Source: a virus (taxonomy: Duplodnaviria > Caudoviricetes). From it: a DNA stretch of 64,000 nt. The position numbers were made by a program, and so were the translations under genes. The stretch lies in IMG/VR virus record IMGVR_UViG_3300047551_002158; one strand, given 5' to 3'. Below, one piece after another: positions 11,581 to 20,237 of the stretch. The notes below the pieces were generated by a model. That model was not told the origin of the DNA, ran no database searches, and saw nothing but the letters and a program-made list of their open reading frames with translations. The first letter of the stretch is position 1. Every line of letters begins with the position of its first letter.

Positions 11581-12123
11581 ATGAACGCACAAGATTTTCG
11601 TAGTCTTCAAGAAGCATATTTGGAAGTTTATAATGACTTGGATGAAGGTGCTTCGGAAGACGTTGCTGCTAGATCCGAAAAACTTGCAAAACAAAGAAAG
11701 GGGCAAACACCTCAAAGAAAAGCAATGTATCAGGGACTTGCACTTAAAGCAAGAATTCGTGCTTCTGGAGGAAATCCTGGAGATAAATCACAGGGACATC
11801 CTTTAAGGAGAGCATCTAATAGACCTATTCACCCCCACGATAGTAAGTATGGTAGATCTGGTTTAACTCAATCTAAAAGAGATGAAAGAAGAGATATAGA
11901 TGCCGCAACTCATGGTGAGTATAGTGATGGTCCTGGAACTGTAACAAAAAATCCAAAAAAACTTCGTAAGCAAAAAGCACTTGGAGAACTTGGAGAACAA
12001 GCAGACCTCTACGACATCATTCTCTCACACCTTCTTGATGAAGGATATGCCGAAACACCAGAAGCAGCAGAAGTCATTATGGTTAATATGAGTGAGGAGT
12101 GGAGAAACTCCATTCTTGGTTAA
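11581..12123 (+). CDS. cyanophage modular hypothetical protein (MNAQDFRSLQEAY family)
   Basis: Characteristic N-terminus and C-terminal DLYDIILSHLLDEGYA module; TATAAATA upstream. Confidence 0.7.
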   Translation: MNAQDFRSLQEAYLEVYNDLDEGASEDVAARSEKLAKQRKGQTPQRKAMYQGLALKARIRASGGNPGDKSQGHPLRRASNRPIHPHDSKYGRSGLTQSKRDERRDIDAATHGEYSDGPGTVTKNPKKLRKQKALGELGEQADLYDIILSHLLDEGYAETPEAAEVIMVNMSEEWRNSILG

Positions 12124-12142
12124 TTTACTTTTTTGATTTATT

Positions 12143-12292
12143 ATGTTACCAAAAATACTTTCTCAGGATTCAAACTATGATGAGTGGTGTGAACAAGAAA
12201 TTCTGAATGCTTATAAAGAAGCAGCAGAATGTGATGAATTTATGTTTGGAGATTATGACTTTTGTAGAGAATGGTTAGGTACAAATAACTAA
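12143..12292 (+). CDS. 49-aa acidic hypothetical protein
   Basis: MLPKILSQDSNYDEWCEQEIL..., read manually. Confidence 0.6.
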   Translation: MLPKILSQDSNYDEWCEQEILNAYKEAAECDEFMFGDYDFCREWLGTNN

Positions 12293-12330
12293 TTTCGTAT
12301 AGATAGAGGAGATCACACTCCTCTTTTTTA

Positions 12331-12492
12331 ATGTCTAAAAATCAGTTAACTAAAGATGAATTTAAAGTTCGTGTTTTAAAATTAAAAAATAATCTTTATA
12401 ACGAACACGTCAGACACGATATGGATATGAAAGGACTTGCCCATAAATATCTGAATGAAGTCCTTGATATTATTGATGAGTATAGATATTGA
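12331..12492 (+). CDS. 53-aa hypothetical protein
   Basis: MSKNQLTKDEFKVRVLKLK..., read manually; overlaps the next gene. Confidence 0.65.
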   Translation: MSKNQLTKDEFKVRVLKLKNNLYNEHVRHDMDMKGLAHKYLNEVLDIIDEYRY

Positions 12493-12919
12493 CTACGAAA
12501 ACCCTTGGATTTATAATGGAAGTCCCTTTATAAGTTCTGATATAGATGACCACTATGGATTTGTTTATTTGATAGAAAACAAACTAAATGGTCGAAAATA
12601 TATTGGAAGAAAATACTTTTGGCAGTTTAGAACACCTAAAGGTAAAAAAAGAAAGGTAAAATCAGAATCTAATTGGAAGGATTACTATGGGTCTTGTCCG
12701 GAACTTAAAGAAGACATTGATAAATTGGGCAGAGAGAATTTTAGTCGAACTATCCTATCATTACATAAAACAAAGGGCAAAACAAACTTTGAGGAGACCA
12801 GACGACTCTTTCTCAATGATGTCCTCACCGAATCTCTTGACAACGGAGGACCAGCCTGGTACAATAGTAACATCCTCAACAGGTACTTCCGAAAAGATTA
12901 TTATGGAAACAACGACTGA
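12476..12919 (+). CDS. conserved GIY-YIG-like nuclease family protein
   Basis: YGFVYLIEN...RKYIGRK and YYGS motifs; lacks NUMOD repeats. Confidence 0.75.
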   Translation: MSIDIDYENPWIYNGSPFISSDIDDHYGFVYLIENKLNGRKYIGRKYFWQFRTPKGKKRKVKSESNWKDYYGSCPELKEDIDKLGRENFSRTILSLHKTKGKTNFEETRRLFLNDVLTESLDNGGPAWYNSNILNRYFRKDYYGNND

Positions 12920-13076
12920 AGATATTGTCGCACATGTGAGGAGTTGGTCTCTTGATCGTGCTGCTGATATGAGTATCGATAAAGAGGATGCTCGTGCTAT
13001 TCTTGCAGAGTTTTATGAGTGGATTGAACCAGAAGATGACGAATTGGAGATCGTTTCTCTGGAACCACAAGATTGA
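12903..13076 (+). CDS. conserved hypothetical protein
   Basis: METTTEDIVAHVRSW...; the likely start is the ATG at 12903. Confidence 0.65.
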   Translation: METTTEDIVAHVRSWSLDRAADMSIDKEDARAILAEFYEWIEPEDDELEIVSLEPQD

Positions 13077-13101
13077 CAAAAACTAAATAAAAACTTATAA
13101 T
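13073..13101 (+). promoter_or_regulatory. consensus sigma70 promoter with embedded CTAAATA late element
   Basis: TTGACA (13073) - N17 - TATAAT (13096). Confidence 0.8.
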
Positions 13102-13153
13102 GTTAAAATCCCTGTTATGAGCAGGGTTTTTTATTATGAGACTTTGAGGATTG

Positions 13154-13228
13154 ATTTAGAGCCGTGGAGATTGCCCCTTGAGAGAGGGGAAGTGCGCTTT
13201 CTCTATACGGATGTAGAGTTCTATTAAA
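13154..13228 (+). ncRNA. candidate structured 5' leader (three-way junction), unassigned
   Basis: TAGAGC/GTTCTA closing stem, CCCCTT-GAGA-GAGGGG hairpin and CTCTAT/GTAGAG hairpin directly before the ATG at 13233. Confidence 0.45.
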
Positions 13229-13232
13229 TTTA

Positions 13233-13859
13233 ATGCGAAACTGCTTTACTGTAGCCCTCTTGCCTCTTCTGGCAACGGTTACAACCACAACGGCAACACT
13301 GCCATCATCTGCTACTGCTCCCCAATATTCTATTATTAAGGAGTTTGAAACAGAGAAGACAGCAATCCGCGAGGTTGCTCCCGAAAAGCCAAAAGAGAAA
13401 AGGCTAATTTGTAAAGGGTGTAATGAACATGAAAATGCTGCCCTGGCATACTTTCAGGGAATTGGTATTAAAGACAGAAACGCCCTTGCTACCATCATGG
13501 GTAATATTCGTCAGGAATCAACTTTTATTCCTAACATTTGTGAAGGTGGTAGTAGAACCTCATACTATAATTGTGGAAGAGGTTATGGTTTGATACAATT
13601 TACTTCTGCTTCTCGTTATTATGGACTGGGTGCTTTTGCTAAAAAAATAGGAGGCAATCCTTCTACTGCTGATACTCAACTTCGGTATATTACTACTGAA
13701 CCACAATGGAAGAGTATTGAAAACAGAATGAGAGTTTCTGGAAAATCTATTGATAGGTATATGAATTATGCCTACGAATGGATTGGATGGGGACACCATG
13801 GAGCAAGAACACAATATGCTTATGACTATGCTAAACGATTGGTTCTTGCTGATGTCTAA
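13233..13859 (+). CDS. phage tail-lysozyme-family cell wall hydrolase with N-terminal signal/TM segment
   Basis: ALATIMGNIRQES and GYGLIQFT motifs; hydrophobic N-terminus. Confidence 0.8.
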   Translation: MRNCFTVALLPLLATVTTTTATLPSSATAPQYSIIKEFETEKTAIREVAPEKPKEKRLICKGCNEHENAALAYFQGIGIKDRNALATIMGNIRQESTFIPNICEGGSRTSYYNCGRGYGLIQFTSASRYYGLGAFAKKIGGNPSTADTQLRYITTEPQWKSIENRMRVSGKSIDRYMNYAYEWIGWGHHGARTQYAYDYAKRLVLADV

Positions 13860-13870
13860 ATAACTTTACC

Positions 13871-13949
13871 TGACTTGCTGACACTTTTCAGGTGAGATTG
13901 GAGTGCTTCGGCACTCCTTTCTTGTATAAATAGTAATGTCAGCAAGTTA
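13871..13949 (+). promoter_or_regulatory. inverted repeat enclosing a terminator hairpin and late promoter upstream of a homing endonuclease
   Basis: TGACTTGCTGACA/TGTCAGCAAGTTA arms; GGAGTGC-TTCG-GCACTCC-TTTT at 13900-13921; TATAAATA at 13925. Confidence 0.75.
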
Positions 13950-13956
13950 GAGTAGT

Positions 13957-14607
13957 ATGAAACACTTTTATGTGTATTATTCCTATGAGGAATATGGAAG
14001 GGGATATATTGGAAAAAGAGAATGTAAATGTCTTCCAGAAGAAGATGTAAGTTATTTTGGAAGTTTCAAAGATAAAACTTTCAATCCAACTCAAAAAATA
14101 ATATTAGAAACTTTTGATAGTGTGGAGAAAGCCCTGGCAGCAGAATGTGCTCTCCACGACTTTTATGAGGTAGATAAAAATCCACACTTTGCTAATAGAG
14201 CAAAACAAACTTCTACTGGATTTTATTGTAATAAAGGTGCTGGTGAAGAAGCAAATAAGAAAAGAAGTGAGTTGATGAAAACAGAATACAATCCTATGAG
14301 TAATCTAAAACTCAAAGAGAAAGCAAGAAAAAACTTGATTAGAACTTTGAGTAATCCAGAAATGAGAAAACTAAAAAGTAGAGTTGGAAAGAAAGCACAC
14401 AATCGTCCAGAAGTAGTTGAGAACCATAGACAGGCAGCACTCAAATCTCATCAAAATCCAGAAACAAAAAGAAAACATATTGAGGCAAAACTTGGTGAGA
14501 AAAATCCTTGTTATGGTAAAAAGTGGATTACAAATGGAAATGAAAACAAATACATAAATTCTATTGATGAAGTTCCAAGTGGTTTTTGGTATGGTAGAGT
14601 TGTTTGA
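13957..14607 (+). CDS. GIY-YIG-like free-standing homing endonuclease
   Basis: FYVYYSY...GYIGKR, YFGSF, NPHFAN, C-terminal GEKNPCYGKKWITNG. Confidence 0.85.
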   Translation: MKHFYVYYSYEEYGRGYIGKRECKCLPEEDVSYFGSFKDKTFNPTQKIILETFDSVEKALAAECALHDFYEVDKNPHFANRAKQTSTGFYCNKGAGEEANKKRSELMKTEYNPMSNLKLKEKARKNLIRTLSNPEMRKLKSRVGKKAHNRPEVVENHRQAALKSHQNPETKRKHIEAKLGEKNPCYGKKWITNGNENKYINSIDEVPSGFWYGRVV

Positions 14608-14692
14608 GGACACTTGACGAACTGGCACAGGGACACTCCAAATGCCCCTGTGATGCCTTATAATACTCTCATACGCAACCAAACCGATGACT
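14603..14692 (+). repeat. early-promoter cassette repeat, copy 1
   Basis: About 90 bp nearly identical to 17134-17222; CACAGGG/CCCTGTG stem, TATAAT, GCAACCAAACCG-ATG. Confidence 0.85.
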
Positions 14693-14905
14693 ACTCCCAA
14701 AGAAACCTACGAATACTGCGAACAACTCATTCAAAAAGAGATTGATGAAGTATTTGTGACTATTAGTAAATGGGGCAAAGAATGTGCTGACCACAATGAA
14801 GAGTTTATTTCTTTTAAAGAGAGAAAGAGTAGTGAACTCAAAAAACTCTATAAACACTTGGAGAACATCCAAGTAATGAAAACCTCTTATCTTTCTGGAC
14901 GATGA
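14687..14905 (+). CDS. hypothetical protein
   Basis: First gene after the promoter cassette; overlapping stop/start junctions continue downstream. Confidence 0.7.
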   Translation: MTTPKETYEYCEQLIQKEIDEVFVTISKWGKECADHNEEFISFKERKSSELKKLYKHLENIQVMKTSYLSGR

Positions 14906-15141
14906 CTGACCTTTCCCCTCAAGCACAAGCAATCATAGATGCTGCTGATGAAGTATTTTCTCACGGAGGAACAATTAGAGAGGGCTTTGCTGCTGCTCTT
15001 CGTGTTCTTGCTGATAATGTTGCCCCTGAAAATTATGCCTGTTTTTCGGGGCATAGAGAGTGGGATGAAGCACTTGAAACAAGAAATGAAAGTATTCGTG
15101 AGGCAATTTTAGATATTGCTACTGAACTGGAGGCACTATGA
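14902..15141 (+). CDS. hypothetical protein (paralog of 15138..15347)
   Basis: AQAI..A N-terminus and ILDIATELEAL C-terminus. Confidence 0.7.
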   Translation: MTDLSPQAQAIIDAADEVFSHGGTIREGFAAALRVLADNVAPENYACFSGHREWDEALETRNESIREAILDIATELEAL

Positions 15142-15347
15142 CTGACCAAGCACAACAAATCTGGGATGCTTTTTATTTTACTTTCGCAGATAAAAGAGTA
15201 GATTTTACCATTCAAGAACTTAATAATAATGCTCTTGCTAATGTTCTCCGTGCTCTTGTGAGTAATAATGAGGAGTGGGTAGATGGAACTTATATGGTAA
15301 AATCAGAAGACATTCTCAACATCGCAACTGAACTTGAAGCATTATGA
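15138..15347 (+). CDS. hypothetical protein (paralog of 14902..15141)
   Basis: AQQIWDA N-terminus and ILNIATELEAL C-terminus. Confidence 0.7.
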   Translation: MTDQAQQIWDAFYFTFADKRVDFTIQELNNNALANVLRALVSNNEEWVDGTYMVKSEDILNIATELEAL

Positions 15348-15532
15348 CTAAACTCACGGCACTTGATTTGATGGTAATTTCAGATACTTTGTATAGAACT
15401 CTTTCTATCGCAGGATTTGGGGGAACTCTTGGTGGATATACAAAAGAAGCAAGAGAAAATGTTGCGAATAAAGTTCAAATAATTTTGAGTAATATGGAAG
15501 TAGAACTACCTGTGGGGAAAACTGATGCCTAA
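15344..15532 (+). CDS. hypothetical protein
   Basis: ATGA-coupled to the upstream gene. Confidence 0.65.
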   Translation: MTKLTALDLMVISDTLYRTLSIAGFGGTLGGYTKEARENVANKVQIILSNMEVELPVGKTDA

Positions 15533-15692
15533 GATGACTTATGAAGAATGGAGTGAAAAAAACCCAATTGATTGGGATGAGATTGAAAAAAATGATAATC
15601 CAGATATGTTAATTACTAAAACAGGTGTAGAAATGATGCATTACCAACTCTATTTGTGGGAATGTAAAAAAGAAGAGGAGAACCAAAAATGA
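15525..15692 (+). CDS. 55-aa hypothetical protein
   Basis: MPKMTYEEWSEKNPIDW..., read manually; fills the gap with coupled overlaps. Confidence 0.6.
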   Translation: MPKMTYEEWSEKNPIDWDEIEKNDNPDMLITKTGVEMMHYQLYLWECKKEEENQK

Positions 15693-16282
15693 CTGAAAGA
15701 TTAAATCATAAACTTAATGTAGATACAATCAAAACAGTTAAAGATGTGAAGAATGTCTTTTATACTATGGAGTTGGTTGCTTCTATTGATGTAGATAATC
15801 CAATATATGAAGTCGCAAAGGAATACTTTACCATTCCTTATGTTCATCCTGAACTAACATTCCCAACACCACGCAAGAGTATTGAAGAAATCACACAAGA
15901 ACTTGATGAGAAGATTGATGCTCTTATGAAGACAACAAAAGAAAAGTTTGAGTGTTCTAACTATTTTGCTGGAAAAAGATATAACGAAAAGTTTGATAGG
16001 ATTATTCAGGACTTTGAGTATGCGAAGAAACACGGAAGTTTTCCACTAACTCAAACACTTACTCTTGATTACTCCAATTTTGATTACTCCAATTTTGTTG
16101 TGACTGGTAGTTCTTTGGAAAGTTCTTTTGTAATCAAACAGGGGAAAACACACGAAGGTTATTATACGAATGGAAACCGTAAATATTTGAAGTATTATAT
16201 GCCCGATAAACCTAATCGTTTGGTGAGGTTCTTTATGAGAACTTGTCTTGGATTTTATTGGGTAGATGAGAAGGACGGATGA
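15689..16282 (+). CDS. hypothetical protein
   Basis: 197 aa; contains a tandem 15-bp duplication encoding DYSNF-DYSNF. Confidence 0.7.
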   Translation: MTERLNHKLNVDTIKTVKDVKNVFYTMELVASIDVDNPIYEVAKEYFTIPYVHPELTFPTPRKSIEEITQELDEKIDALMKTTKEKFECSNYFAGKRYNEKFDRIIQDFEYAKKHGSFPLTQTLTLDYSNFDYSNFVVTGSSLESSFVIKQGKTHEGYYTNGNRKYLKYYMPDKPNRLVRFFMRTCLGFYWVDEKDG

Positions 16283-16464
16283 GATACTACGAAACCAGAA
16301 CTTATGAGCACCAGTGTGACTTTGATGCTAAAAACAGAGCAGAAAAAGCATCACAAGATTACTACAAAAAGTGGATAAATCTTCGTAAAGAAGTAAGAGA
16401 ACTGGTAAAAACTCAAAACATTTCTATTACACCCGAATTTGCTAAACTGATTGGAATGAAATGA
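16279..16464 (+). CDS. hypothetical protein
   Basis: Coupled overlaps at both ends. Confidence 0.6.
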   Translation: MRYYETRTYEHQCDFDAKNRAEKASQDYYKKWINLRKEVRELVKTQNISITPEFAKLIGMK

Positions 16465-16742
16465 CTAATCCACTCCTACAAAAATACGAAGAACTCTACG
16501 GAAAGAAAGAAGAACCAAAACCACAAAAGACACACACAGAAAAACTGAAAGAACTTCGGGATACTTCTACTATTCCAATCACAAAATTCACAACTCACGA
16601 TATTGATAGTATTAACGATAGTTTCTTACAGATTGCCGAAAAGATAAAAAACAAAGAGGCACAAGTAACTTCTATGAATATGGATTATGAACATCATACT
16701 CACACACAAAGAATTACTTTTGAGGTTTTGACCAATTTTTGA
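16461..16742 (+). CDS. hypothetical protein
   Basis: Coupled overlap with the upstream gene. Confidence 0.65.
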   Translation: MTNPLLQKYEELYGKKEEPKPQKTHTEKLKELRDTSTIPITKFTTHDIDSINDSFLQIAEKIKNKEAQVTSMNMDYEHHTHTQRITFEVLTNF

Positions 16743-16811
16743 ACTGGCACAGGGAGACCCCACAAGGTCTCCTATTGGTCTATAATACTCTCATAAGCAA
16801 CCAAACCGATG
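16728..16811 (+). repeat. early-promoter cassette repeat, diverged copy 2
   Basis: GAACTGGCACAGGG...GGAGACC/GGTCTCC stem...TATAATACTCTCATAAGCAACCAAACCG-ATG. Confidence 0.8.
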
Positions 16812-17138
16812 ATTGACCTCTCGCAACTGACCGAAGACCAAATCAACGAACTTGAACTTCAAATCCAAAAACATAAGGAAGAACAAAAACACAAAGATAA
16901 TCTAAAAAATCTAAAAGGTTATAAAGTGACCTTTTATATTAGGTTTGACCCTGAAAAGCATAAGGATGATGATATGCTTACAGATGAGGGAGAACTTGAC
17001 CCTAACATTTTTGCTGATTATCTGTGTGATAATCTTGTTACAGACCTGATTAGGGGTTTTGAATTGTATGGTTATGAGGATGTGAGTTATCCTAATGTGG
17101 AAGTAGCAACACAACAAGATATTGAAGAGAAGTTTTGA
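16809..17138 (+). CDS. hypothetical protein
   Basis: MIDLSQLTEDQINELE..., follows cassette copy 2. Confidence 0.7.
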   Translation: MIDLSQLTEDQINELELQIQKHKEEQKHKDNLKNLKGYKVTFYIRFDPEKHKDDDMLTDEGELDPNIFADYLCDNLVTDLIRGFELYGYEDVSYPNVEVATQQDIEEKF

Positions 17139-17222
17139 GGACACTTGAAGAACTGGCACAGGGACACTCCAAATGCCCCTGTGATGCCTTATAATAACCT
17201 CATAAGCAACCAACCGATGACT
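17134..17222 (+). repeat. early-promoter cassette repeat, copy 3
   Basis: Near-identical to 14603-14692. Confidence 0.85.
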
Positions 17223-17417
17223 GAAGAACAAATCCTTGAAATTGCTGAAAATCACCTAACTCTTGAAAAGTGGGAGGACATTTGTTGGAGGGCAGATACT
17301 TTACAACTCTTGAAGTTTGCCCGAGAACTTTATGATGAGGGTTATACAAAAGGTTTCAAAGTAGGACACGATGCTGGTTGGGAACTAAACGATGAAGTAT
17401 CACGCAGAGGATTATGA
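17217..17417 (+). CDS. hypothetical protein
   Basis: MTEEQILEIAENHL...; the likely start follows the cassette. Confidence 0.65.
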   Translation: MTEEQILEIAENHLTLEKWEDICWRADTLQLLKFARELYDEGYTKGFKVGHDAGWELNDEVSRRGL

Positions 17418-17680
17418 CTTTACTTGAAACTCTTGAATACTTTCTCACAGAAACCGCAGCAGATATGGATGGTTTGTCTTGGGAAATCCGTGAGGAAACT
17501 AACTTTGAGGACAACAACATAGAACATTTGACTGAATGTTATGATTTCAATAAACAACTTTATGATAATCTCAAACAAATCAAATCTATTATTGAGAATA
17601 TTGAAGCACTAAAATGGGCAGATAAAATTTTAGATGGTGTTGATTTGAATGAGGAACTACCTGATGAAGAAACTACCTGA
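17414..17680 (+). CDS. hypothetical protein
   Basis: Coupled to the upstream gene. Confidence 0.65.
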   Translation: MTLLETLEYFLTETAADMDGLSWEIREETNFEDNNIEHLTECYDFNKQLYDNLKQIKSIIENIEALKWADKILDGVDLNEELPDEETT

Positions 17681-17819
17681 TAAACTACAACTTGATATTA
17701 TGTGGAGTGTTGCTACAAGTTCAGCAATAGAAACAAGACAGAAACCACATCTTATTTTTGCTAAACTTCTTTATGACGAACTAAACGACATCAAATTGCC
17801 AGTAGAACTTGGTAAATAA
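17664..17819 (+). CDS. 51-aa hypothetical protein
   Basis: MKKLPDKLQLDIMWSVATSSAIE..., read manually. Confidence 0.55.
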   Translation: MKKLPDKLQLDIMWSVATSSAIETRQKPHLIFAKLLYDELNDIKLPVELGK

Positions 17820-17821
17820 AA

Positions 17822-18088
17822 TTGGAATGGACATCTGCCGATCGTTATTATGGATTGGGTGATTTTGCTAGAAAGACTGGTGGTAATCCATCGTCTATTC
17901 ACACGCAACTTAATTATCTAACGACTGAGGTTCAATGGAAACGAATTGTAGATAGGATGAAAACTCCTGGTAAGTCTATCGATCGTTACATGAACTATGC
18001 GTATAGTTGGATTGGTTGGGGGCATCATGGTGCCCGCACTTCGTATGCCTATGATTATGCCAACCGACTGATCACGGTAGAAGTTTGA
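17822..18088 (+). pseudogene. orphan 3' fragment of the tail-lysozyme gene
   Basis: 62 of 87 aa identical by manual alignment to the C-terminus of 13233..13859; begins within the GYGLIQWT motif; no catalytic N-terminal half. Confidence 0.85.
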
Positions 18089-18137
18089 TACAATAGAATA
18101 ATAAATAGTGGGGAGTAACAACTACTCCCCCTTTTTT

Positions 18138-18437
18138 ATGTCTATAGAAAATCTTCCAGACGACGAAAAGGATATTATAAATCTTGCCTCAAAGGCGGGA
18201 TATTTAAAAGTTTCTACTGATATAGGGGAAATCAAACTCAACTCATATAATCAAGTAGAAATTCAACCAAAAGGAACACCATTTGGGGCAAAGATAAAGG
18301 TTGAAGAGAATGGTAATGTAACTCCAACATTAACTTTCGATACTAAAAAACTGAGAGAACCAAAAAAGAATATAGATACAAAACAACTATTGGACGATGC
18401 TCTAGAGGATTTTTGGAATGAGCAAGACCAAGTTTAA
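18138..18437 (+). CDS. hypothetical protein
   Basis: MSIENLPDDE... after a terminator-like hairpin at 18107-18136. Confidence 0.65.
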   Translation: MSIENLPDDEKDIINLASKAGYLKVSTDIGEIKLNSYNQVEIQPKGTPFGAKIKVEENGNVTPTLTFDTKKLREPKKNIDTKQLLDDALEDFWNEQDQV

Positions 18438-18708
18438 TATCTTTGAGTTTAAGTATGGAAGGGAAAAGAAATCTCTAAAAGAATTGATAAAAATAGGAGC
18501 CGTATTGCACGGTTCATTGGATATAATTTCTTTAATACCAGGAATAGAAAAAAAGAAAGTTTTTAATTTAATTGATATTATTCAATTAAAAATGGGAACG
18601 ATTAGTATTATTAACGATTATATTATTCGGGATGAAGAATTGCTCTCTTATCGTATAGATAGGGTGGTTACTAAAGCAATCTCAGAGTACGAAAAGGATA
18701 ATGTTTAA
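18418..18708 (+). CDS. hypothetical protein
   Basis: Overlaps both neighbours. Confidence 0.6.
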   Translation: MSKTKFNIFEFKYGREKKSLKELIKIGAVLHGSLDIISLIPGIEKKKVFNLIDIIQLKMGTISIINDYIIRDEELLSYRIDRVVTKAISEYEKDNV

Positions 18709-19126
18709 ACTTTTTGAGATTAGAAGCGGAAAATTTACTGCTCTTCCGGATATAAGTCCAAAGAACATTAAGAGATCAATTATTGCTGTTGTTATTGTGG
18801 CAGTAGTTGTTTTCTTATCTGGATGGTTGAAGATTGAAGAGAAGGAACTTTGGAAGTTTTATAACTCTATTATACAGCATTTTGGATTAAAAGAAAACCT
18901 ACCAGACATAAAGAATAATAAAAAACTTGAAGCAAATATAGAGTCTGAAGTTGATAGGGCAATAGAAGAATATAAACGCTTGACAGGGTATTCAAATGAA
19001 CCTATAATACCTTTGCCAAGGTTGATTGAAGTAGCTCCTGATAATTCTATATGTTACTCTGAAGAATGTAAGAAACTTGGTGGAGAAATGAGATTATGTG
19101 CTCCTTGGAGAGAAGATTGCGTTTAA
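18701..19126 (+). CDS. membrane-anchored hypothetical protein
   Basis: TM segment SIIAVVIVAVVVFLSGWL; Cys-rich C-terminus. Confidence 0.7.
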   Translation: MFKLFEIRSGKFTALPDISPKNIKRSIIAVVIVAVVVFLSGWLKIEEKELWKFYNSIIQHFGLKENLPDIKNNKKLEANIESEVDRAIEEYKRLTGYSNEPIIPLPRLIEVAPDNSICYSEECKKLGGEMRLCAPWREDCV

Positions 19127-19166
19127 AGCGTCTAAATAACATATCCTTATTATATTAGAGGTTATT

Positions 19167-19361
19167 ATGTCATCATCACAACAACTACTTGATGCTGTTG
19201 AAGCGTGGAAAGTAGAAGACGAAAAGTTTACTAATGGTAATGCATCTGCAGGTACTCGTGCTCGTAAAGCACTTCAGGAAATTGCTAAACTTGTAAAAGC
19301 ACGTAGATCAGAAATCACTGAAGAAAAGACCGCACGTAAGGAAGCAAAAGCATCTGGTTGA
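19167..19361 (+). CDS. histone H1-like (Hc1-family) small basic protein
   Basis: KFTNGNASAGTRARKALQEIAKL motif; CTAAATA upstream. Confidence 0.7.
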   Translation: MSSSQQLLDAVEAWKVEDEKFTNGNASAGTRARKALQEIAKLVKARRSEITEEKTARKEAKASG

Positions 19362-19472
19362 CATTTGAGCACCAGTCCCTTATAATACTCTCATAGGCAG
19401 CGGGGGTCCAAACTCCGCATAAATCCTTCACCCCCCAAGCCTCTTTATAATGCTCAAACAGGGGGGTCTCTT

Positions 19473-19546
19473 GTCTCAGTAGCTCAGTTGGATAGAGCAT
19501 CTGCCTTCTAAGCAGTTGGTCGGGGGTTCAAGTCCCTCCTGAGACG
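19473..19546 (+). tRNA. trnR: tRNA-Arg(TCT)
   Basis: Cloverleaf; anticodon loop CT-TCT-AA. Confidence 0.92.
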
Positions 19547-19642
19547 TTACCACTTGCGCTGGAAAGATAAACCAGAATGCCGTGGTAAGATAGAGGGTAA
19601 GCCTCTGTTATATCCTTGAGGTATATTACGTTTACTCCATCT

Positions 19643-19725
19643 GCTTCAGTGGTGGAACGGTAGACACAGCGGACTTAGAATCCGCCGCCTTAAAAAGCGT
19701 GGAAGTTCAAATCTTCTCTGGAGCA
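19643..19725 (+). tRNA. trnL: tRNA-Leu(TAG)
   Basis: GCGGA-CT-TAG-AA-TCCGC; long variable arm. Confidence 0.92.
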
Positions 19726-19765
19726 CTTGACAATCAAACTTAAATAGTTTATGATTGTCTTATAA

Positions 19766-19836
19766 GCGGGTATGGTGTAGCGGTAACACGCCATCCTTCC
19801 AAGTTGGAATCACCGGTTCGAACCCGGTTACCCGCT
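19766..19836 (+). tRNA. trnG: tRNA-Gly(TCC)
   Basis: GCGGGTA acceptor stem; CT-TCC-AA loop. Confidence 0.92.
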
Positions 19837-19838
19837 TT

Positions 19839-19911
19839 CCTCTGCGTAGTCTATTGGTAAGGACGGGTGGACAACACACATGGAAACTGGGTTCGATTCC
19901 CAGCCAGAGGT
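19839..19911 (+). ncRNA. atypical tRNA-like RNA (non-canonical anticodon loop)
   Basis: Canonical T arm CTGGG-TTCGATT-CCCAG and D arm GTC/GAC; acceptor stem bulged; loop GACAACA lacks U33. Confidence 0.6.
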
Positions 19912-19928
19912 ACACTTACTTTTTTCTT

Positions 19929-20108
19929 ATGGAAGTTGAAATTAATTCTATAAATATCGCAAGACTTCTAAGTGAATTAGAAGGTTGCTATATCTTCACC
20001 AAGTATATGGGTTTTGAAGATGATATGAATACAATTGATGAAATGAAGAAACGTTATTATAAACTTTACTTCAAACTTTATAAGGAAGAAAAAAGTAATC
20101 CACAATAG
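19929..20108 (+). CDS. hypothetical protein within the tRNA cluster
   Basis: MEVEINSINIARLLSELEG...; its stop codon lies inside tRNA-Asn. Confidence 0.65.
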   Translation: MEVEINSINIARLLSELEGCYIFTKYMGFEDDMNTIDEMKKRYYKLYFKLYKEEKSNPQ

Positions 20109-20170
20109 CTCAGCGGTAGAGTCGGTGACTGTTAATCACTTGGTCCCTGGTTCGAATCCAGGTTGTGGAG
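20099..20170 (+). tRNA. trnN: tRNA-Asn(GTT)
   Basis: TCCACAA/TTGTGGA acceptor stem; CT-GTT-AA loop. Confidence 0.92.
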
Positions 20171-20237
20171 TTGGGTGGTCGCGGTTGACGGTTAATTACC
20201 TTCTCAACATGCGAGTGGGAATACCTACCACCCTTAA

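What the first reader, a model, noticed from the sequence alone, without database searches (positions are those of the whole stretch)
13233..18088. A ~4-kb endonuclease-plus-cargo cassette splits the lysozyme gene and supplies a replacement 3' end
Seen: the last 87 codons of the hydrolase occur twice (about 13596-13859 in frame; 17825-18088 orphaned), 62/87 aa identical. The orphan begins inside the GYGLIQ[W/F]T motif. Between them lie a GIY-YIG endonuclease and about 12 small genes under repeated promoters. The orphan's codon style (GCC, CGC, ACG, TCG) resembles the gene's 5' half more than the in-frame tail does. Inference: a homing element invaded the conserved motif, rebuilt the gene with a diverged cleavage-resistant tail, and carries cargo genes, behaving like an integrative island driven by a nuclease rather than an integrase.
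Basis: partly seen in the sequence, partly recalled or inferred. Interest (0 to 1): 0.72.

Follow-up and report, generated by a model that had tools for sequence, protein, structure and literature searches.

The report
Nuclease cassette that rebuilds phage lysozyme
A selfish nuclease-gene cassette sits inside the lysozyme gene of a T4-like cyanophage; it keeps the gene working with its own replacement end, strands the old end downstream and carries about a dozen small passenger genes between phages, a design known from yeast and fungal mitochondria but rarely resolved in phages.

Summary

- **Hybrid gene.** The lysozyme gene (13233-13859) is a hybrid. Up to 13559 it matches an uninterrupted environmental relative (L030) at 95-100% nt. 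From 13560 it matches a block (new tail, spacer, endonuclease gene) that is 97-100% identical in contigs whose 5' halves are only 68-94% alike.
- **Orphan.** The orphan (17826-18088) is 97% identical to L030's in-frame tail.
- **Shared junction.** Six different backbones share one right junction, ...AAAATT(G/A)G|AATGGAC. A second filled/empty pair (L163/L046) is 99.6% identical from exactly that point.
- **Phe/Trp codon.** All 21 nuclease-linked alleles have Phe (TTT) at the junction codon. Sixty of 68 alleles without it have Trp (TGG).
- **Coexistence.** Filled and empty alleles occur together in three metagenomes from separate studies.
- **Cargo.** Only the two right-end genes are shown to travel with the nuclease. 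The middle cargo is a variable mosaic bounded by repeated promoter motifs.
- **Untested.** Cleavage itself was not tested.

The mechanism matches WHO elements of yeast and fungal mitochondrial mobile ORFs. The scan has already noted the same layout in other phages (nadV, VRR-NUC and a tail-module gene). I rate it a new variant of a known kind, of moderate interest.

The parts
12455..12919 (+). Neighbouring SegE-like GIY-YIG gene. It is context, not part of the cassette.
   Evidence: PF19835, E 1.7e-53. It is present upstream of the lysozyme gene in most loci with or without the cassette, and its identity tracks the backbone.
13073..13126 (+). Promoter (12/12 sigma-70 match) and hairpin in the lysozyme leader.
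   Evidence: Nucleotide homology of most related loci starts at 13073.
13233..13559 (+). Native 5' part of the lysozyme gene (the recipient backbone).
   Evidence: 95-100% nt identical to the uninterrupted allele of L030, but only 68-94% identical to cassette-bearing contigs.
13560..13598 (+). Co-converted stretch just upstream of the insertion point (donor sequence).
   Evidence: 100% identical in L003, L004, L011, L007, L012 and L015, and unlike L030. The left border differs from contig to contig, and in one allele it lies exactly at CAA|TTT.
13599..13859 (+). Replacement 3' end of the lysozyme gene. Its first codon is TTT (Phe) in place of TGG (Trp).
   Evidence: 98.9-100% nt identical among cassette-bearing contigs. 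TTT is found in 21/21 nuclease-linked alleles.
13870..13950 (+). Regulatory spacer: an outer stem (13870-13883 / 13937-13950) encloses a terminator hairpin (13900-13917) and a T4-type late promoter TATAAATA (13925-13932). The right arm ends 6 nt before the ATG.
   Evidence: RNA fold -44.9 kcal/mol, z -6.4. Conserved with compensatory changes in 9 diverged loci. Terminator found. This layout is known for T4 homing endonuclease genes (PMC2988022).
13957..14607 (+). Free-standing homing endonuclease gene (216 aa): a GIY-YIG-like N-terminal domain plus NUMOD3 repeats.
   Evidence: phrog_314 'homing endonuclease', E 1.3e-11. NUMOD3 in 20/20 homologues, best E 3.5e-23. Invariant YVY..YIG.R..E..N. 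The top fold match is the I-TevI catalytic domain, Z 4.6, which is weak.
14603..14692 (+). Repeat 1 (stem-loop plus TATAAT; PeSL-like). It travels with the endonuclease gene in L003, L011, L015 and L087.
14687..17413 (+). Variable cargo: 10 small ORFs with no recognised family, in modules bounded by repeats 2 (16725-16812) and 3 (17134-17221).
   Evidence: No Pfam or PHROG match. Modules are 90-97% identical to S-SRM01 and S-PM2 at other genome positions. Cassette copies in L011, L015 and L087 differ in content. Repeat-to-repeat joints occur in metagenome contigs.
17414..17825 (+). Conserved right end of the cassette: two small genes (17414-17680 and 17649-17819) and the last 6 nt.
   Evidence: 98-99% nt identical in L015 and L087. 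The 56-aa product is 98-100% identical in L015, L087, L163, L188 and L205, and is always followed by an orphan tail; homologues at 90% identity or less lie in other contexts.
17826..18088 (+). Orphaned native 3' end of the lysozyme gene (Trp type); the proposed right homology arm.
   Evidence: 97% nt identical to the in-frame tail of L030. The junction is identical in six backbones whose orphans are only 67-89% alike. The TTG at 17822 is TTA in 4 of 6 copies.
18110..18130 (+). Native terminator of the lysozyme gene, now behind the orphan.
   Evidence: It also follows the in-frame tail in L030.

Best explanation
This is a homing-endonuclease cassette of the 'replace the 3' end' type, lodged in the tail-lysozyme gene of a freshwater T4-like cyanophage (Kyanoviridae).

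**Unit.** The cassette consists of: a replacement lysozyme tail (Phe instead of Trp at the junction codon) with its own terminator; a late-promoter and RBS-hairpin spacer; a GIY-YIG-like/NUMOD3 endonuclease gene; a variable set of small early-type genes; and a constant right end abutting the displaced native tail.

**Proposed cycle (inferred).**
- In a mixed infection the endonuclease cuts the Trp-type allele at or within a few bases of CAA|TGG in the GYGLIQWT motif. The Phe-type tail is not cut.
- The break is repaired from the cassette-bearing genome. The left end pairs in the conserved 5' half of the gene, which gives variable co-conversion borders.
- The right end, which begins with the native tail, pairs with the donor's orphan tail. 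Everything between is therefore copied: new tail, nuclease gene and whatever cargo lies there.
- The orphan makes homing independent of the hypervariable DNA downstream of the gene.

**Shown.** The chimeric gene; two near-isogenic filled/empty pairs; the same junction in six backbones; linkage of tail and nuclease gene; discordant trees for the two gene halves; coexistence of both alleles in the same samples.

**Inferred.** Nuclease activity, the cut site, immunity conferred by Trp->Phe, and the role of the orphan as a homology arm.
For: - **Empty allele.** L030 is 95-100% nt identical over 13233-13559, 97% over the orphan and 98% over the genes after 18108, but only 71% over the in-frame tail.
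- **Second pair.** L163 (filled) and L046 (empty) are 99.6% identical over 4638 nt, starting exactly at the junction.
- **Mobile block.** 13560-14607 is 97-100% identical in 7 distinct cassette-bearing sequences. Pairwise tail identity is 98.9-100%, while their 5' parts (13370-13559) are 78.9-95.9% identical.
- **Trees.** An AU test on the 5' half rejects one clade for the cassette-bearing alleles (p 0.0056). The tail does not reject it (p 0.60).
- **Right junction.** It is identical in the window, L015, L087, L163, L188 and L205. The cassette end is 92-100% identical, the orphans 67-89%, and the first differences appear 9-15 nt past the junction.
- **Junction codon.** TTT in 21/21 nuclease-linked alleles across nuclease lineages of 56-100% identity; TGG in 60/68 without it. 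The 8 exceptions are 2 contig ends, 3 loci with a different GIY-YIG-like gene in the same slot, and 3 mosaic tails.
- **Coexistence.** Empty-allele joints 13559->17826 (with 37 Trp-type letters between) or 13555->17826 occur in runs from three studies that also hold the cassette.
- **Regulation.** The spacer has the T4 homing-endonuclease layout: a late promoter inside an RBS-sequestering hairpin (PMC2988022).
- **Decay stages.** Orphans cut down to aa 12-88, 61-88 and 66-88 (L024, L090, L013) and an F/W mosaic tail without a nuclease gene (L020).
- **Precedent.** The same model was established experimentally for WHO elements at yeast FBA1 (PMC7282813).
Against: - No cleavage assay exists, and no characterised homologue. 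The nearest named relative is the uncharacterised S-PM2p178 (48% identity), not F-CphI.
- The catalytic domain is not recognised by Pfam or NCBIfam. The fold match is weak (model pLDDT 66; Z 4.6; Foldseek E above 1).
- Cassette-bearing contigs without an orphan exist (L007, L012, L026), so the orphan is not required for spread of the nuclease gene.
- The Trp/Phe association is not corrected for shared ancestry.
- The middle cargo differs between copies, so transfer of the whole 4.2 kb as one unit is not shown for this window.
- The orphans show no relaxed selection (dN/dS 0.13-0.39 against a median of 0.19 for functional pairs). This fits recent insertion but does not prove it.
Confidence: 0.8

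Rival explanations
1. Recombination without nuclease drive. The block spreads by ordinary homologous recombination between co-infecting cyanophages, perhaps selected for its cargo or for the Phe-type lysozyme. The endonuclease gene is a passenger or is inactive.
For: T4-like cyanophage genomes are highly mosaic. The cargo modules recur at 90-97% identity in S-SRM01 and S-PM2. L007 and L012 share 100% identity for more than 2.3 kb beyond the nuclease gene. No activity data exist.
Against: The recombination border sits at one codon in six backbones. The nuclease ORF is intact and 94-100% conserved in the near-identical (class A) copies. Its T4-type regulatory hairpin is conserved with compensatory changes. 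The TTT codon follows nuclease genes of several lineages, and even a different nuclease gene in the same slot.
Confidence: 0.1
2. The orphan is an accident. One illegitimate repair event produced the orphan-retaining layout, which is then carried along. The orphan has no role as a homology arm, and transfer uses homology further out.
For: Orphan-free layouts with the same nuclease gene exist (L007, L012, L026). One-sided illegitimate repair at microhomology is documented in T4 (PMC2988022).
Against: In L163/L046 and in window/L030, homology to the empty allele starts exactly at the junction. The orphans differ by 11-33% between backbones while the cassette end stays 92-100% identical, as expected if crossing-over occurs inside the orphan right at the break.
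Confidence: 0.07
3. Local tandem duplication of the gene end followed by divergence, with later insertions between the copies.
For: There are two copies in direct orientation on the same strand.
Against: The in-frame copy is 99-100% identical to copies in unrelated backbones. The orphan is 97% identical to the in-frame tail of the near-isogenic empty allele.
Confidence: 0.01
4. Assembly chimera of two co-occurring phage strains.
For: The window comes from, or matches, metagenomes in which both alleles occur. The stretch 13485-13559 is nearly identical in both allele types.
Against: The right junction shares only about 15 nt with empty alleles, yet recurs in five other independent contigs from different samples. 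The left block recurs in at least 7 contigs. A Logan contig in X1 covers 13523-17... in pieces with 0 differences across 13559/13560 (record 2).
Confidence: 0.02

Closest known systems
WHO elements at the FBA1 aldolase gene of Torulaspora/Lachancea yeasts (Coughlan et al. 2020, eLife; PMC7282813)
   Same: The endonuclease gene lies just downstream of a resistance-conferring replacement 3' end. The recipient's old 3' end is pushed downstream as a fragment that begins at the cut site and serves as the homology arm. The target gene is chimeric, its 5' and 3' trees disagree, and sensitive and resistant alleles coexist.
   Different: The nuclease family is different (GIY-YIG-like/NUMOD3 rather than intein-derived LAGLIDADG plus zinc fingers). 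The host is a phage genome and transfer happens in mixed infection rather than meiosis. Up to 3.2 kb of unrelated passenger genes lie between nuclease gene and fragment. Cleavage is not demonstrated here.
Mobile endonuclease ORFs (mORFs) that make gene hybrids in fungal mitochondria: Allomyces macrogynus atp6; Glomus atp6, atp9, cox2, nad3 (Beaudet et al. 2013, PMC3630166)
   Same: A foreign C-terminal segment lies in frame with the native gene, followed by the endonuclease ORF and then the native C-terminus. The native copy matches close relatives and the inserted copy is diverged (63.5% nt in Glomus atp6; 71% here).
   Different: Those are organellar, mostly LAGLIDADG, often fused in frame with the gene, and carry no cargo. 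Here the nuclease gene is separate, with its own terminator, late promoter and RBS hairpin.
Free-standing seg/mob homing endonucleases of T4-type phages ('intronless homing', marker exclusion; Edgell, Gibb & Belfort 2010, PMC2988022)
   Same: A GIY-YIG-type gene next to a conserved gene, polymorphic among relatives, with co-conversion of flanking markers and a late promoter inside an RBS-sequestering hairpin. The orphan-free layout in L007/L012 is exactly this type.
   Different: The classical cases sit between genes and rely on homology beyond the insertion. They keep no displaced copy of the target's end and no defined right junction inside the target gene.
'HEG islands' and gene fragments beside phage HEGs (Barth, Dunham & Seed 2023, PMC10448857 / PMC10055350)
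   Same: They report fragments of essential genes next to phage HEGs and suggest that these act as recombination substrates for later homing. They also report that HEGs in one slot are exchanged for unrelated ones, as seen here in L013/L023.
   Different: HEG islands are blocks of more than 10 kb of essential genes bracketed by two HEGs. Here there is one driving HEG and a single split accessory or structural gene. The upstream SegE-like gene follows the backbone, not the block.
PeSL promoter/stem-loop cassettes of T4-type hyperplastic regions (Arbiol et al. 2010, PMC2839356; Comeau et al. 2014, PMC4122927)
   Same: Repeated ~80-nt stem-loop plus TATAAT motifs sit at the borders of small-gene modules that differ between relatives. 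Repeat-to-repeat joints are seen in metagenome contigs.
   Different: There is no -35 box at 17 nt. The hairpins are not more stable than shuffled sequence (z -0.7 to -1.9). Cyanophage versions are not described in the papers read.

Membership tests
Free-standing homing endonuclease gene of T4-type phages | Endonuclease ORF outside any intron or intein, present in some related genomes and absent from others at the same locus | tested here: met
   Of 89 lysozyme loci, 21 carry a homologue within 400 nt of the stop codon and 63 have neither it nor a Phe-type tail of 95% or more. No Rfam intron was found in 12000-20200.
Free-standing homing endonuclease gene of T4-type phages | Co-conversion: flanking target sequence travels with the nuclease gene, with variable tract ends | tested here: met
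   The tail is 98.9-100% identical among carriers whose 5' parts are 78.9-95.9% identical. Left borders fall between about 13485 and 13599.
Free-standing homing endonuclease gene of T4-type phages | Site-specific cleavage of the allele lacking the gene, and immunity of the allele carrying it | not testable with these tools
   Indirect only: TGG versus TTT at the junction codon, 60/68 versus 21/21.
Free-standing homing endonuclease gene of T4-type phages | Late promoter placed inside an RNA structure that sequesters the RBS on read-through transcripts | tested here: met
   TATAAATA at 13925-13932 lies inside a -44.9 kcal/mol structure (z -6.4) whose right arm ends 6 nt before the ATG. It is conserved with compensatory pairs. 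Expression was not measured.
GIY-YIG nuclease superfamily | GIY...YIG strands followed by conserved Arg, Glu and Asn in a beta-beta-alpha-beta-alpha domain | tested here: inconclusive
   Invariant Y5-V6-Y7, Y17-I18-G19, R21, E63 and N80 in 20 homologues. The model shows strand-strand-helix-strand-helix. The top wide-search hit is I-TevI catalytic domain 1ln0, Z 4.6, with UvrC GIY-YIG at Z 4.4. It shares the phrog_314 region with the Pfam-confirmed SegE-like neighbour. There is no Pfam or NCBIfam GIY-YIG hit, and Foldseek E is above 1.
NUMOD3-bearing homing endonucleases | NUMOD3 DNA-binding repeats C-terminal to the nuclease domain | tested here: met
   PF07460 is found in 20/20 family members, best E 3.5e-23. 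The window protein itself scores 18.7 bits, just under the 20.4 cutoff.
WHO-type / mORF-type homing element (works-like comparison) | Chimeric target gene: recipient 5' part plus donor 3' part that differs at the presumed cut site | tested here: met
WHO-type / mORF-type homing element (works-like comparison) | Displaced native 3' fragment downstream of the nuclease gene, beginning at the insertion or cut point | tested here: met
   The orphan begins at AATGGAC in six backbones, and two isogenic empty alleles align from that base.
WHO-type / mORF-type homing element (works-like comparison) | Discordant phylogenies of the 5' and 3' parts of the target gene | tested here: met
   AU test p 0.0056 (5' part) against 0.60 (tail) for one clade of carriers.
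WHO protein family (membership by descent) | Intein-derived LAGLIDADG nuclease with zinc fingers | tested here: not met
   No such domains were found; the protein has a GIY-YIG-like domain and NUMOD3 repeats instead. The window element works like a WHO element but is not a member of that family.
Integrase-driven integrative island with a duplicated gene 3' end | Site-specific recombinase gene and fixed attL/attR repeats on both sides | tested here: not met
   None of the 13 ORFs matches a recombinase family. The left border is variable and only the right junction is fixed.
PeSL regulatory cassettes | Stem-loop plus sigma-70 early promoter, repeated at borders of variable modules | tested here: inconclusive
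   Repeats do sit at module borders and joints between them are seen. However, no -35 box was found and hairpin stability does not differ from shuffles.

The most novel reading that the evidence does not exclude
The cassette is a general, nuclease-driven vehicle for accessory genes in cyanophages. By keeping the displaced gene end as a built-in right homology arm, the element homes into any Trp-type lysozyme allele whatever lies downstream. Any small early gene that recombines in between the nuclease gene and the orphan (through the repeated promoter motifs) is then spread super-Mendelianly across diverged phage lineages. This would be a phage counterpart of an integrative island without an integrase, and a route by which host-takeover or anti-defence genes could sweep through phage populations.
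Probability: 0.35. Interest if true: 0.75.

Novelty: new variant of a known kind. Interest (0 to 1): 0.58.

Why it matters
Homing endonucleases are thought to shape phage genomes, but natural cases in which donor, recipient, junction and immunity change can all be read from sequence are rare. This one has several useful properties.

- **Filled and empty pairs.** There are two near-isogenic filled/empty pairs, six independent backbones with one junction, a single candidate immunity codon (Trp->Phe in a conserved catalytic-site motif), and both alleles coexisting in the same waters.
- **Convergence.** The 'replace the gene end and keep the old end as a homology arm' strategy, established for yeast WHO elements and fungal mitochondrial mORFs, has arisen again in T4-like cyanophages with an unrelated nuclease.
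- **Hitchhiking genes.** Unrelated genes placed inside such a cassette travel with it. That bears on how small accessory genes move between phages.
- **Testability.** The system can be tested directly with a cell-free nuclease assay and with phage crosses.

Tried and rejected
- **F-CphI homology rejected.** The tblastn hit in S-PM2 lies on the neighbouring uncharacterised gene p178, not on F-CphI.
- **Searches with no useful result for the endonuclease.** Pfam and NCBIfam gave no GIY-YIG hit. A PDB sequence search returned only spurious ribosomal hits. Foldseek against PDB gave nothing at E <= 0.001. hhalign of the family against the SegE-like neighbour aligned only a C-terminal stretch (probability 1%).
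- **Cargo genes.** No Pfam or PHROG family was found for any of the 12 small ORFs or the three genes after the orphan.
- **Relaxed selection on orphans.** Not detected.
- **Microhomology at the right junction.** Comparison with native contexts of the 56-aa gene (L166 and others) left 4-5 nt of unclear origin and no clean microhomology.
- **Whole-genome search.** The window's own genome is not held. Within the window there are no further copies of the nuclease gene or the lysozyme tail.
- **Read laying limits.** Logan contigs are short, so no single record spans the cassette, and the bridging of 17825/17826 in X4 has only 30 letters on one side. Depth figures were not used.
- **Rfam.** Nothing inside 13233-18088; only tRNAs and an abiF RNA further on.
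- **'Nuclease gene lost' in L013/L014/L023.** Rejected: a different GIY-YIG-like gene occupies the slot.

Full report
**What the window is.** The region belongs to a T4-like cyanophage (Kyanoviridae). The nearest named relatives for parts of it are the freshwater Synechococcus phages DSL-LC02, DSL-LC03 and S-SRM01, and the marine phage S-PM2. No whole genome is held for it. Public runs that hold the stretch are freshwater, estuarine and aquatic metagenomes from seven studies.

**The observation.**
- ORF 13233-13859 encodes a 208-aa protein of Pfam family PF18013, 'phage tail lysozyme' (E 5e-14).
- Its last 88 codons recur at 17822-18088 with 62/88 identical residues (E 4e-48) and 71% nucleotide identity without gaps. 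The offset is 4229 bp.
- Between the copies lie a 216-aa endonuclease gene (13957-14607), twelve small + strand ORFs (14687-17819) and three copies of an ~80-nt repeat ending in TATAAT.
GC3 is 0.32 in the 5' half and 0.35 in the orphan, against 0.20 in the in-frame tail and 0.19 in the endonuclease gene.

**Empty alleles.**
- DSL-LC02 and DSL-LC03 carry an uninterrupted gene. Its 5' part aligns with the window's 5' part and its 3' part is closer to the orphan than to the in-frame tail (80-82% against 67-69% aa).
- Among 80 IMG/VR loci found with the lysozyme protein, L030 is nearly isogenic with the window. It is 95-100% nt identical over 13233-13559, 97% over the orphan and 98% over the genes that follow 18108, but only 71% over the in-frame tail.
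- The window sequence switches at 13559/13560 from L030-like to a different sequence.
- A second pair is sharper still. L163 carries the cassette's right end followed by an orphan, and from the first base of that orphan it is 99.6% identical over 4638 nt to L046, which has an uninterrupted gene.
- Contigs in three metagenome runs from different studies contain the empty join: 13559->17826 with 37 Trp-type letters between, or 13555->17826. The same runs also hold the cassette. Filled and empty alleles therefore coexist in nature.

**A block that moves.**
- From 13560 through the tail, the spacer and the endonuclease gene, the window is 97-100% identical to L003, L004, L011, L007, L012, L015 and L087. 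Their 5' halves are only 68-94% identical to the window.
- Among seven distinct carrier sequences, pairwise tail identity is 98.9-100% while the conserved 5' part (13370-13559) is 78.9-95.9% identical. Among 46 non-carriers the tail is the more variable part (median 84.8%).
- An AU test on the 5' half rejects a single clade of carriers (p 0.0056). The tail does not reject it (p 0.60).
- The left limit of the shared block differs between contigs (about 13485 to 13560). In one diverged carrier it lies exactly at CAA|TTT. This is the signature of gene-conversion tracts, not of a recombinase site.

**A fixed right junction.**
- The last two cargo genes (17414-17819) are 98-99% identical in L015 and L087.
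- A search with the 56-aa product found three more contigs (L163, L188, L205) with 100% identical copies.
- In all six backbones the gene is followed, after the same few bases, by an 88-codon orphan starting at AATGGAC. The cassette end is 92-100% identical between them and the orphans only 67-89%. The first differences appear 9-15 nt past the junction.
- Homologues of the 56-aa gene at 90% identity or less lie in other contexts, without a lysozyme fragment.
- At least the right-end genes therefore move together with the nuclease gene into different genomes.

**The candidate immunity change.**
- The junction coincides with the codon after Gln in GYGLIQ(W/F)T. All 21 alleles followed by a homologue of the endonuclease gene have TTT there, including lineages whose nuclease is only 56-90% identical to the window's. 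Sixty of 68 alleles without it have TGG (Fisher p 3e-14, not corrected for relatedness).
- The eight exceptions are instructive. Two are contig ends. Three (L013, L014, L023) have a different GIY-YIG-like gene in the same slot behind the same regulatory spacer. Three have mosaic tails.
- L020 is Phe-type for about 65 codons and Trp-type at the end. This is what recombination between the two tail copies would leave after deleting the cassette.
- No other position separates the two classes universally.

**The endonuclease.**
- Pfam recognises only NUMOD3, just below threshold in the window protein but present in 20/20 homologues (best E 3.5e-23).
- PHROGs places it in phrog_314, 'homing endonuclease' (E 1.3e-11). 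It matches the same profile region as the neighbouring SegE-like protein, which is a Pfam-confirmed GIY-YIG.
- The N-terminal 90 residues are the most conserved part and carry YVY...YIG.R...E...N invariantly.
- An AlphaFold model (pLDDT 66) has the expected strand-strand-helix-strand-helix order. Foldseek finds nothing significant. In the exhaustive alignment the best match is the I-TevI catalytic domain (Z 4.6, 66 residues, rmsd 5.7), followed by UvrC's GIY-YIG domain (Z 4.4). These are weak scores.
- I therefore call the protein GIY-YIG-like, not proven.
- The nearest named homologue is S-PM2p178 (48% identity). It is an uncharacterised gene lying next to, but distinct from, the characterised F-CphI.

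**Regulation.**
- The 97-nt spacer folds at -44.9 kcal/mol (z -6.4). An outer stem (13870-13883 with 13937-13950) encloses the terminator of the new tail (13900-13917) and TATAAATA (13925-13932). Its right arm ends 6 nt before the ATG.
- The structure is kept in nine diverged loci, with two alternative, mutually compensating stem sequences.
- This is the arrangement described for I-TevI, segB and mobE: translation is blocked on read-through transcripts and permitted from the late promoter (PMC2988022).

**The cargo.**
- None of the twelve ORFs matches a Pfam or PHROG family.
- The DNA is a mosaic. Modules delimited by the three repeats are 90-97% identical to S-SRM01 and S-PM2, where they lie in small-gene regions far from the lysozyme gene.
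- Cassette copies in L011, L015 and L087 keep both ends but have shorter or different middles. Metagenome contigs show repeat-to-repeat joins such as 14629->17190.
- In one diverged lineage (L091) the orphan abuts the nuclease gene with no cargo at all.
- The minimal element is thus new tail plus nuclease gene plus orphan. Cargo accumulates between nuclease gene and orphan and turns over quickly, probably through the repeats. These resemble PeSL cassettes (PMC2839356, PMC4122927) but lack a -35 box and a significantly stable hairpin.

**Two architectures.**
- In L007, L012 and L026 the same nuclease gene and Phe-type tail are followed directly by DNA that in the non-carrier L061 follows the lysozyme stop codon. 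There is no orphan, so this is the classical free-standing layout.
- The orphan-retaining layout probably arose from it by a one-sided repair event; illegitimate one-sided repair is documented in T4.
- It has an evident advantage in a region whose downstream genes differ from phage to phage, because both homology arms are pieces of the target gene itself. This step is inference.

**Mechanism and comparison.** The data fit, point for point, the model established experimentally for WHO elements at yeast FBA1. In that model a nuclease cuts the sensitive allele. Repair copies a resistant 3' end plus the nuclease gene. The downstream fragment of the donor supplies the second homology arm, and the recipient's old 3' end becomes the new fragment (PMC7282813). 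The same layout occurs with mobile endonuclease ORFs in fungal mitochondria (PMC3630166). Barth and co-workers noted gene fragments beside phage HEGs and proposed that they are recombination substrates. Earlier agents of this scan reported the layout in other phages. What is added here is a T4-like cyanophage case with an unrelated nuclease family, population-level proof of mobility, a single-codon immunity candidate and hitchhiking passenger genes.

**Verdict.** I rate it a new variant of a known kind. Confidence in the homing reading is 0.8 and interest is 0.58. The untested link is the nuclease's activity and cut site.

Noticed in passing
L013:7774-8352 (also L014, L023): A different GIY-YIG-like gene (192 aa, IYYTYAYL...YYIGKGKG; phrog_15526, no Pfam hit) occupies the slot of the window's endonuclease gene. 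It sits behind the same late-promoter hairpin and the same Phe-type tail, and in L013 it is followed by an orphan fragment (aa 66-88). This looks like nuclease-gene swapping within one cassette frame.
   Followed up: partly
L020:3014-3724: The lysozyme tail is a mosaic: Phe-type for about 65 codons, then Trp-type for the last ~20, with no nuclease gene. This looks like loss of a cassette by recombination between the two tail copies, which would leave an immune allele.
   Followed up: partly
L007:7388-10700 and L012:7403-10715: Two large contigs (205 kb and 284 kb, from different samples) are 100% identical from the lysozyme tail through the nuclease gene and at least 2.3 kb beyond. They differ upstream: different 5' halves, and a different, inverted seg-like gene. 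A recombination border therefore sits in the lysozyme gene.
   Followed up: partly
window 13073-13232: A perfect sigma-70 promoter (TTGACA-17-TATAAT) is followed by a terminator-like hairpin (13110-13126) and a conserved leader before the lysozyme start. Nucleotide homology of many related loci begins exactly at 13073. No Rfam match.
   Followed up: no
window 19431-19467: An Rfam abiF RNA match (54 bits, gathering score 37) lies directly in front of a tRNA cluster (19473-20170).
   Followed up: no
L030:1240-2319: The empty-allele relative has a ~960-bp insertion absent from the window. It is flanked by two copies of the ~60-nt terminator region that follows the lysozyme gene (window 18101-18159). 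This is another cassette exchange at a repeated regulatory motif.
   Followed up: no
L026:8423-8911, L090:6674-7042, L024:4956-5090: In other cassette lineages the gene right after the endonuclease gene is a homologue (36-78% aa) of the window's 11581-12123 gene. Here it appears as cassette cargo.
   Followed up: no
L160:2501-3130 (S-PM2p178): The closest named homologue of the window's endonuclease (48% aa) is an unannotated gene immediately downstream of the characterised F-CphI, between psbA and psbD of S-PM2. That locus may therefore hold two homing endonuclease genes in tandem.
   Followed up: no
window 14619, 16741, 17150: The repeat core GAACTGGCACAGGGA occurs only three times in the 64-kb window, all inside the cassette. 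The associated TATAATACTCTCATA box recurs once more at 19381.
   Followed up: partly
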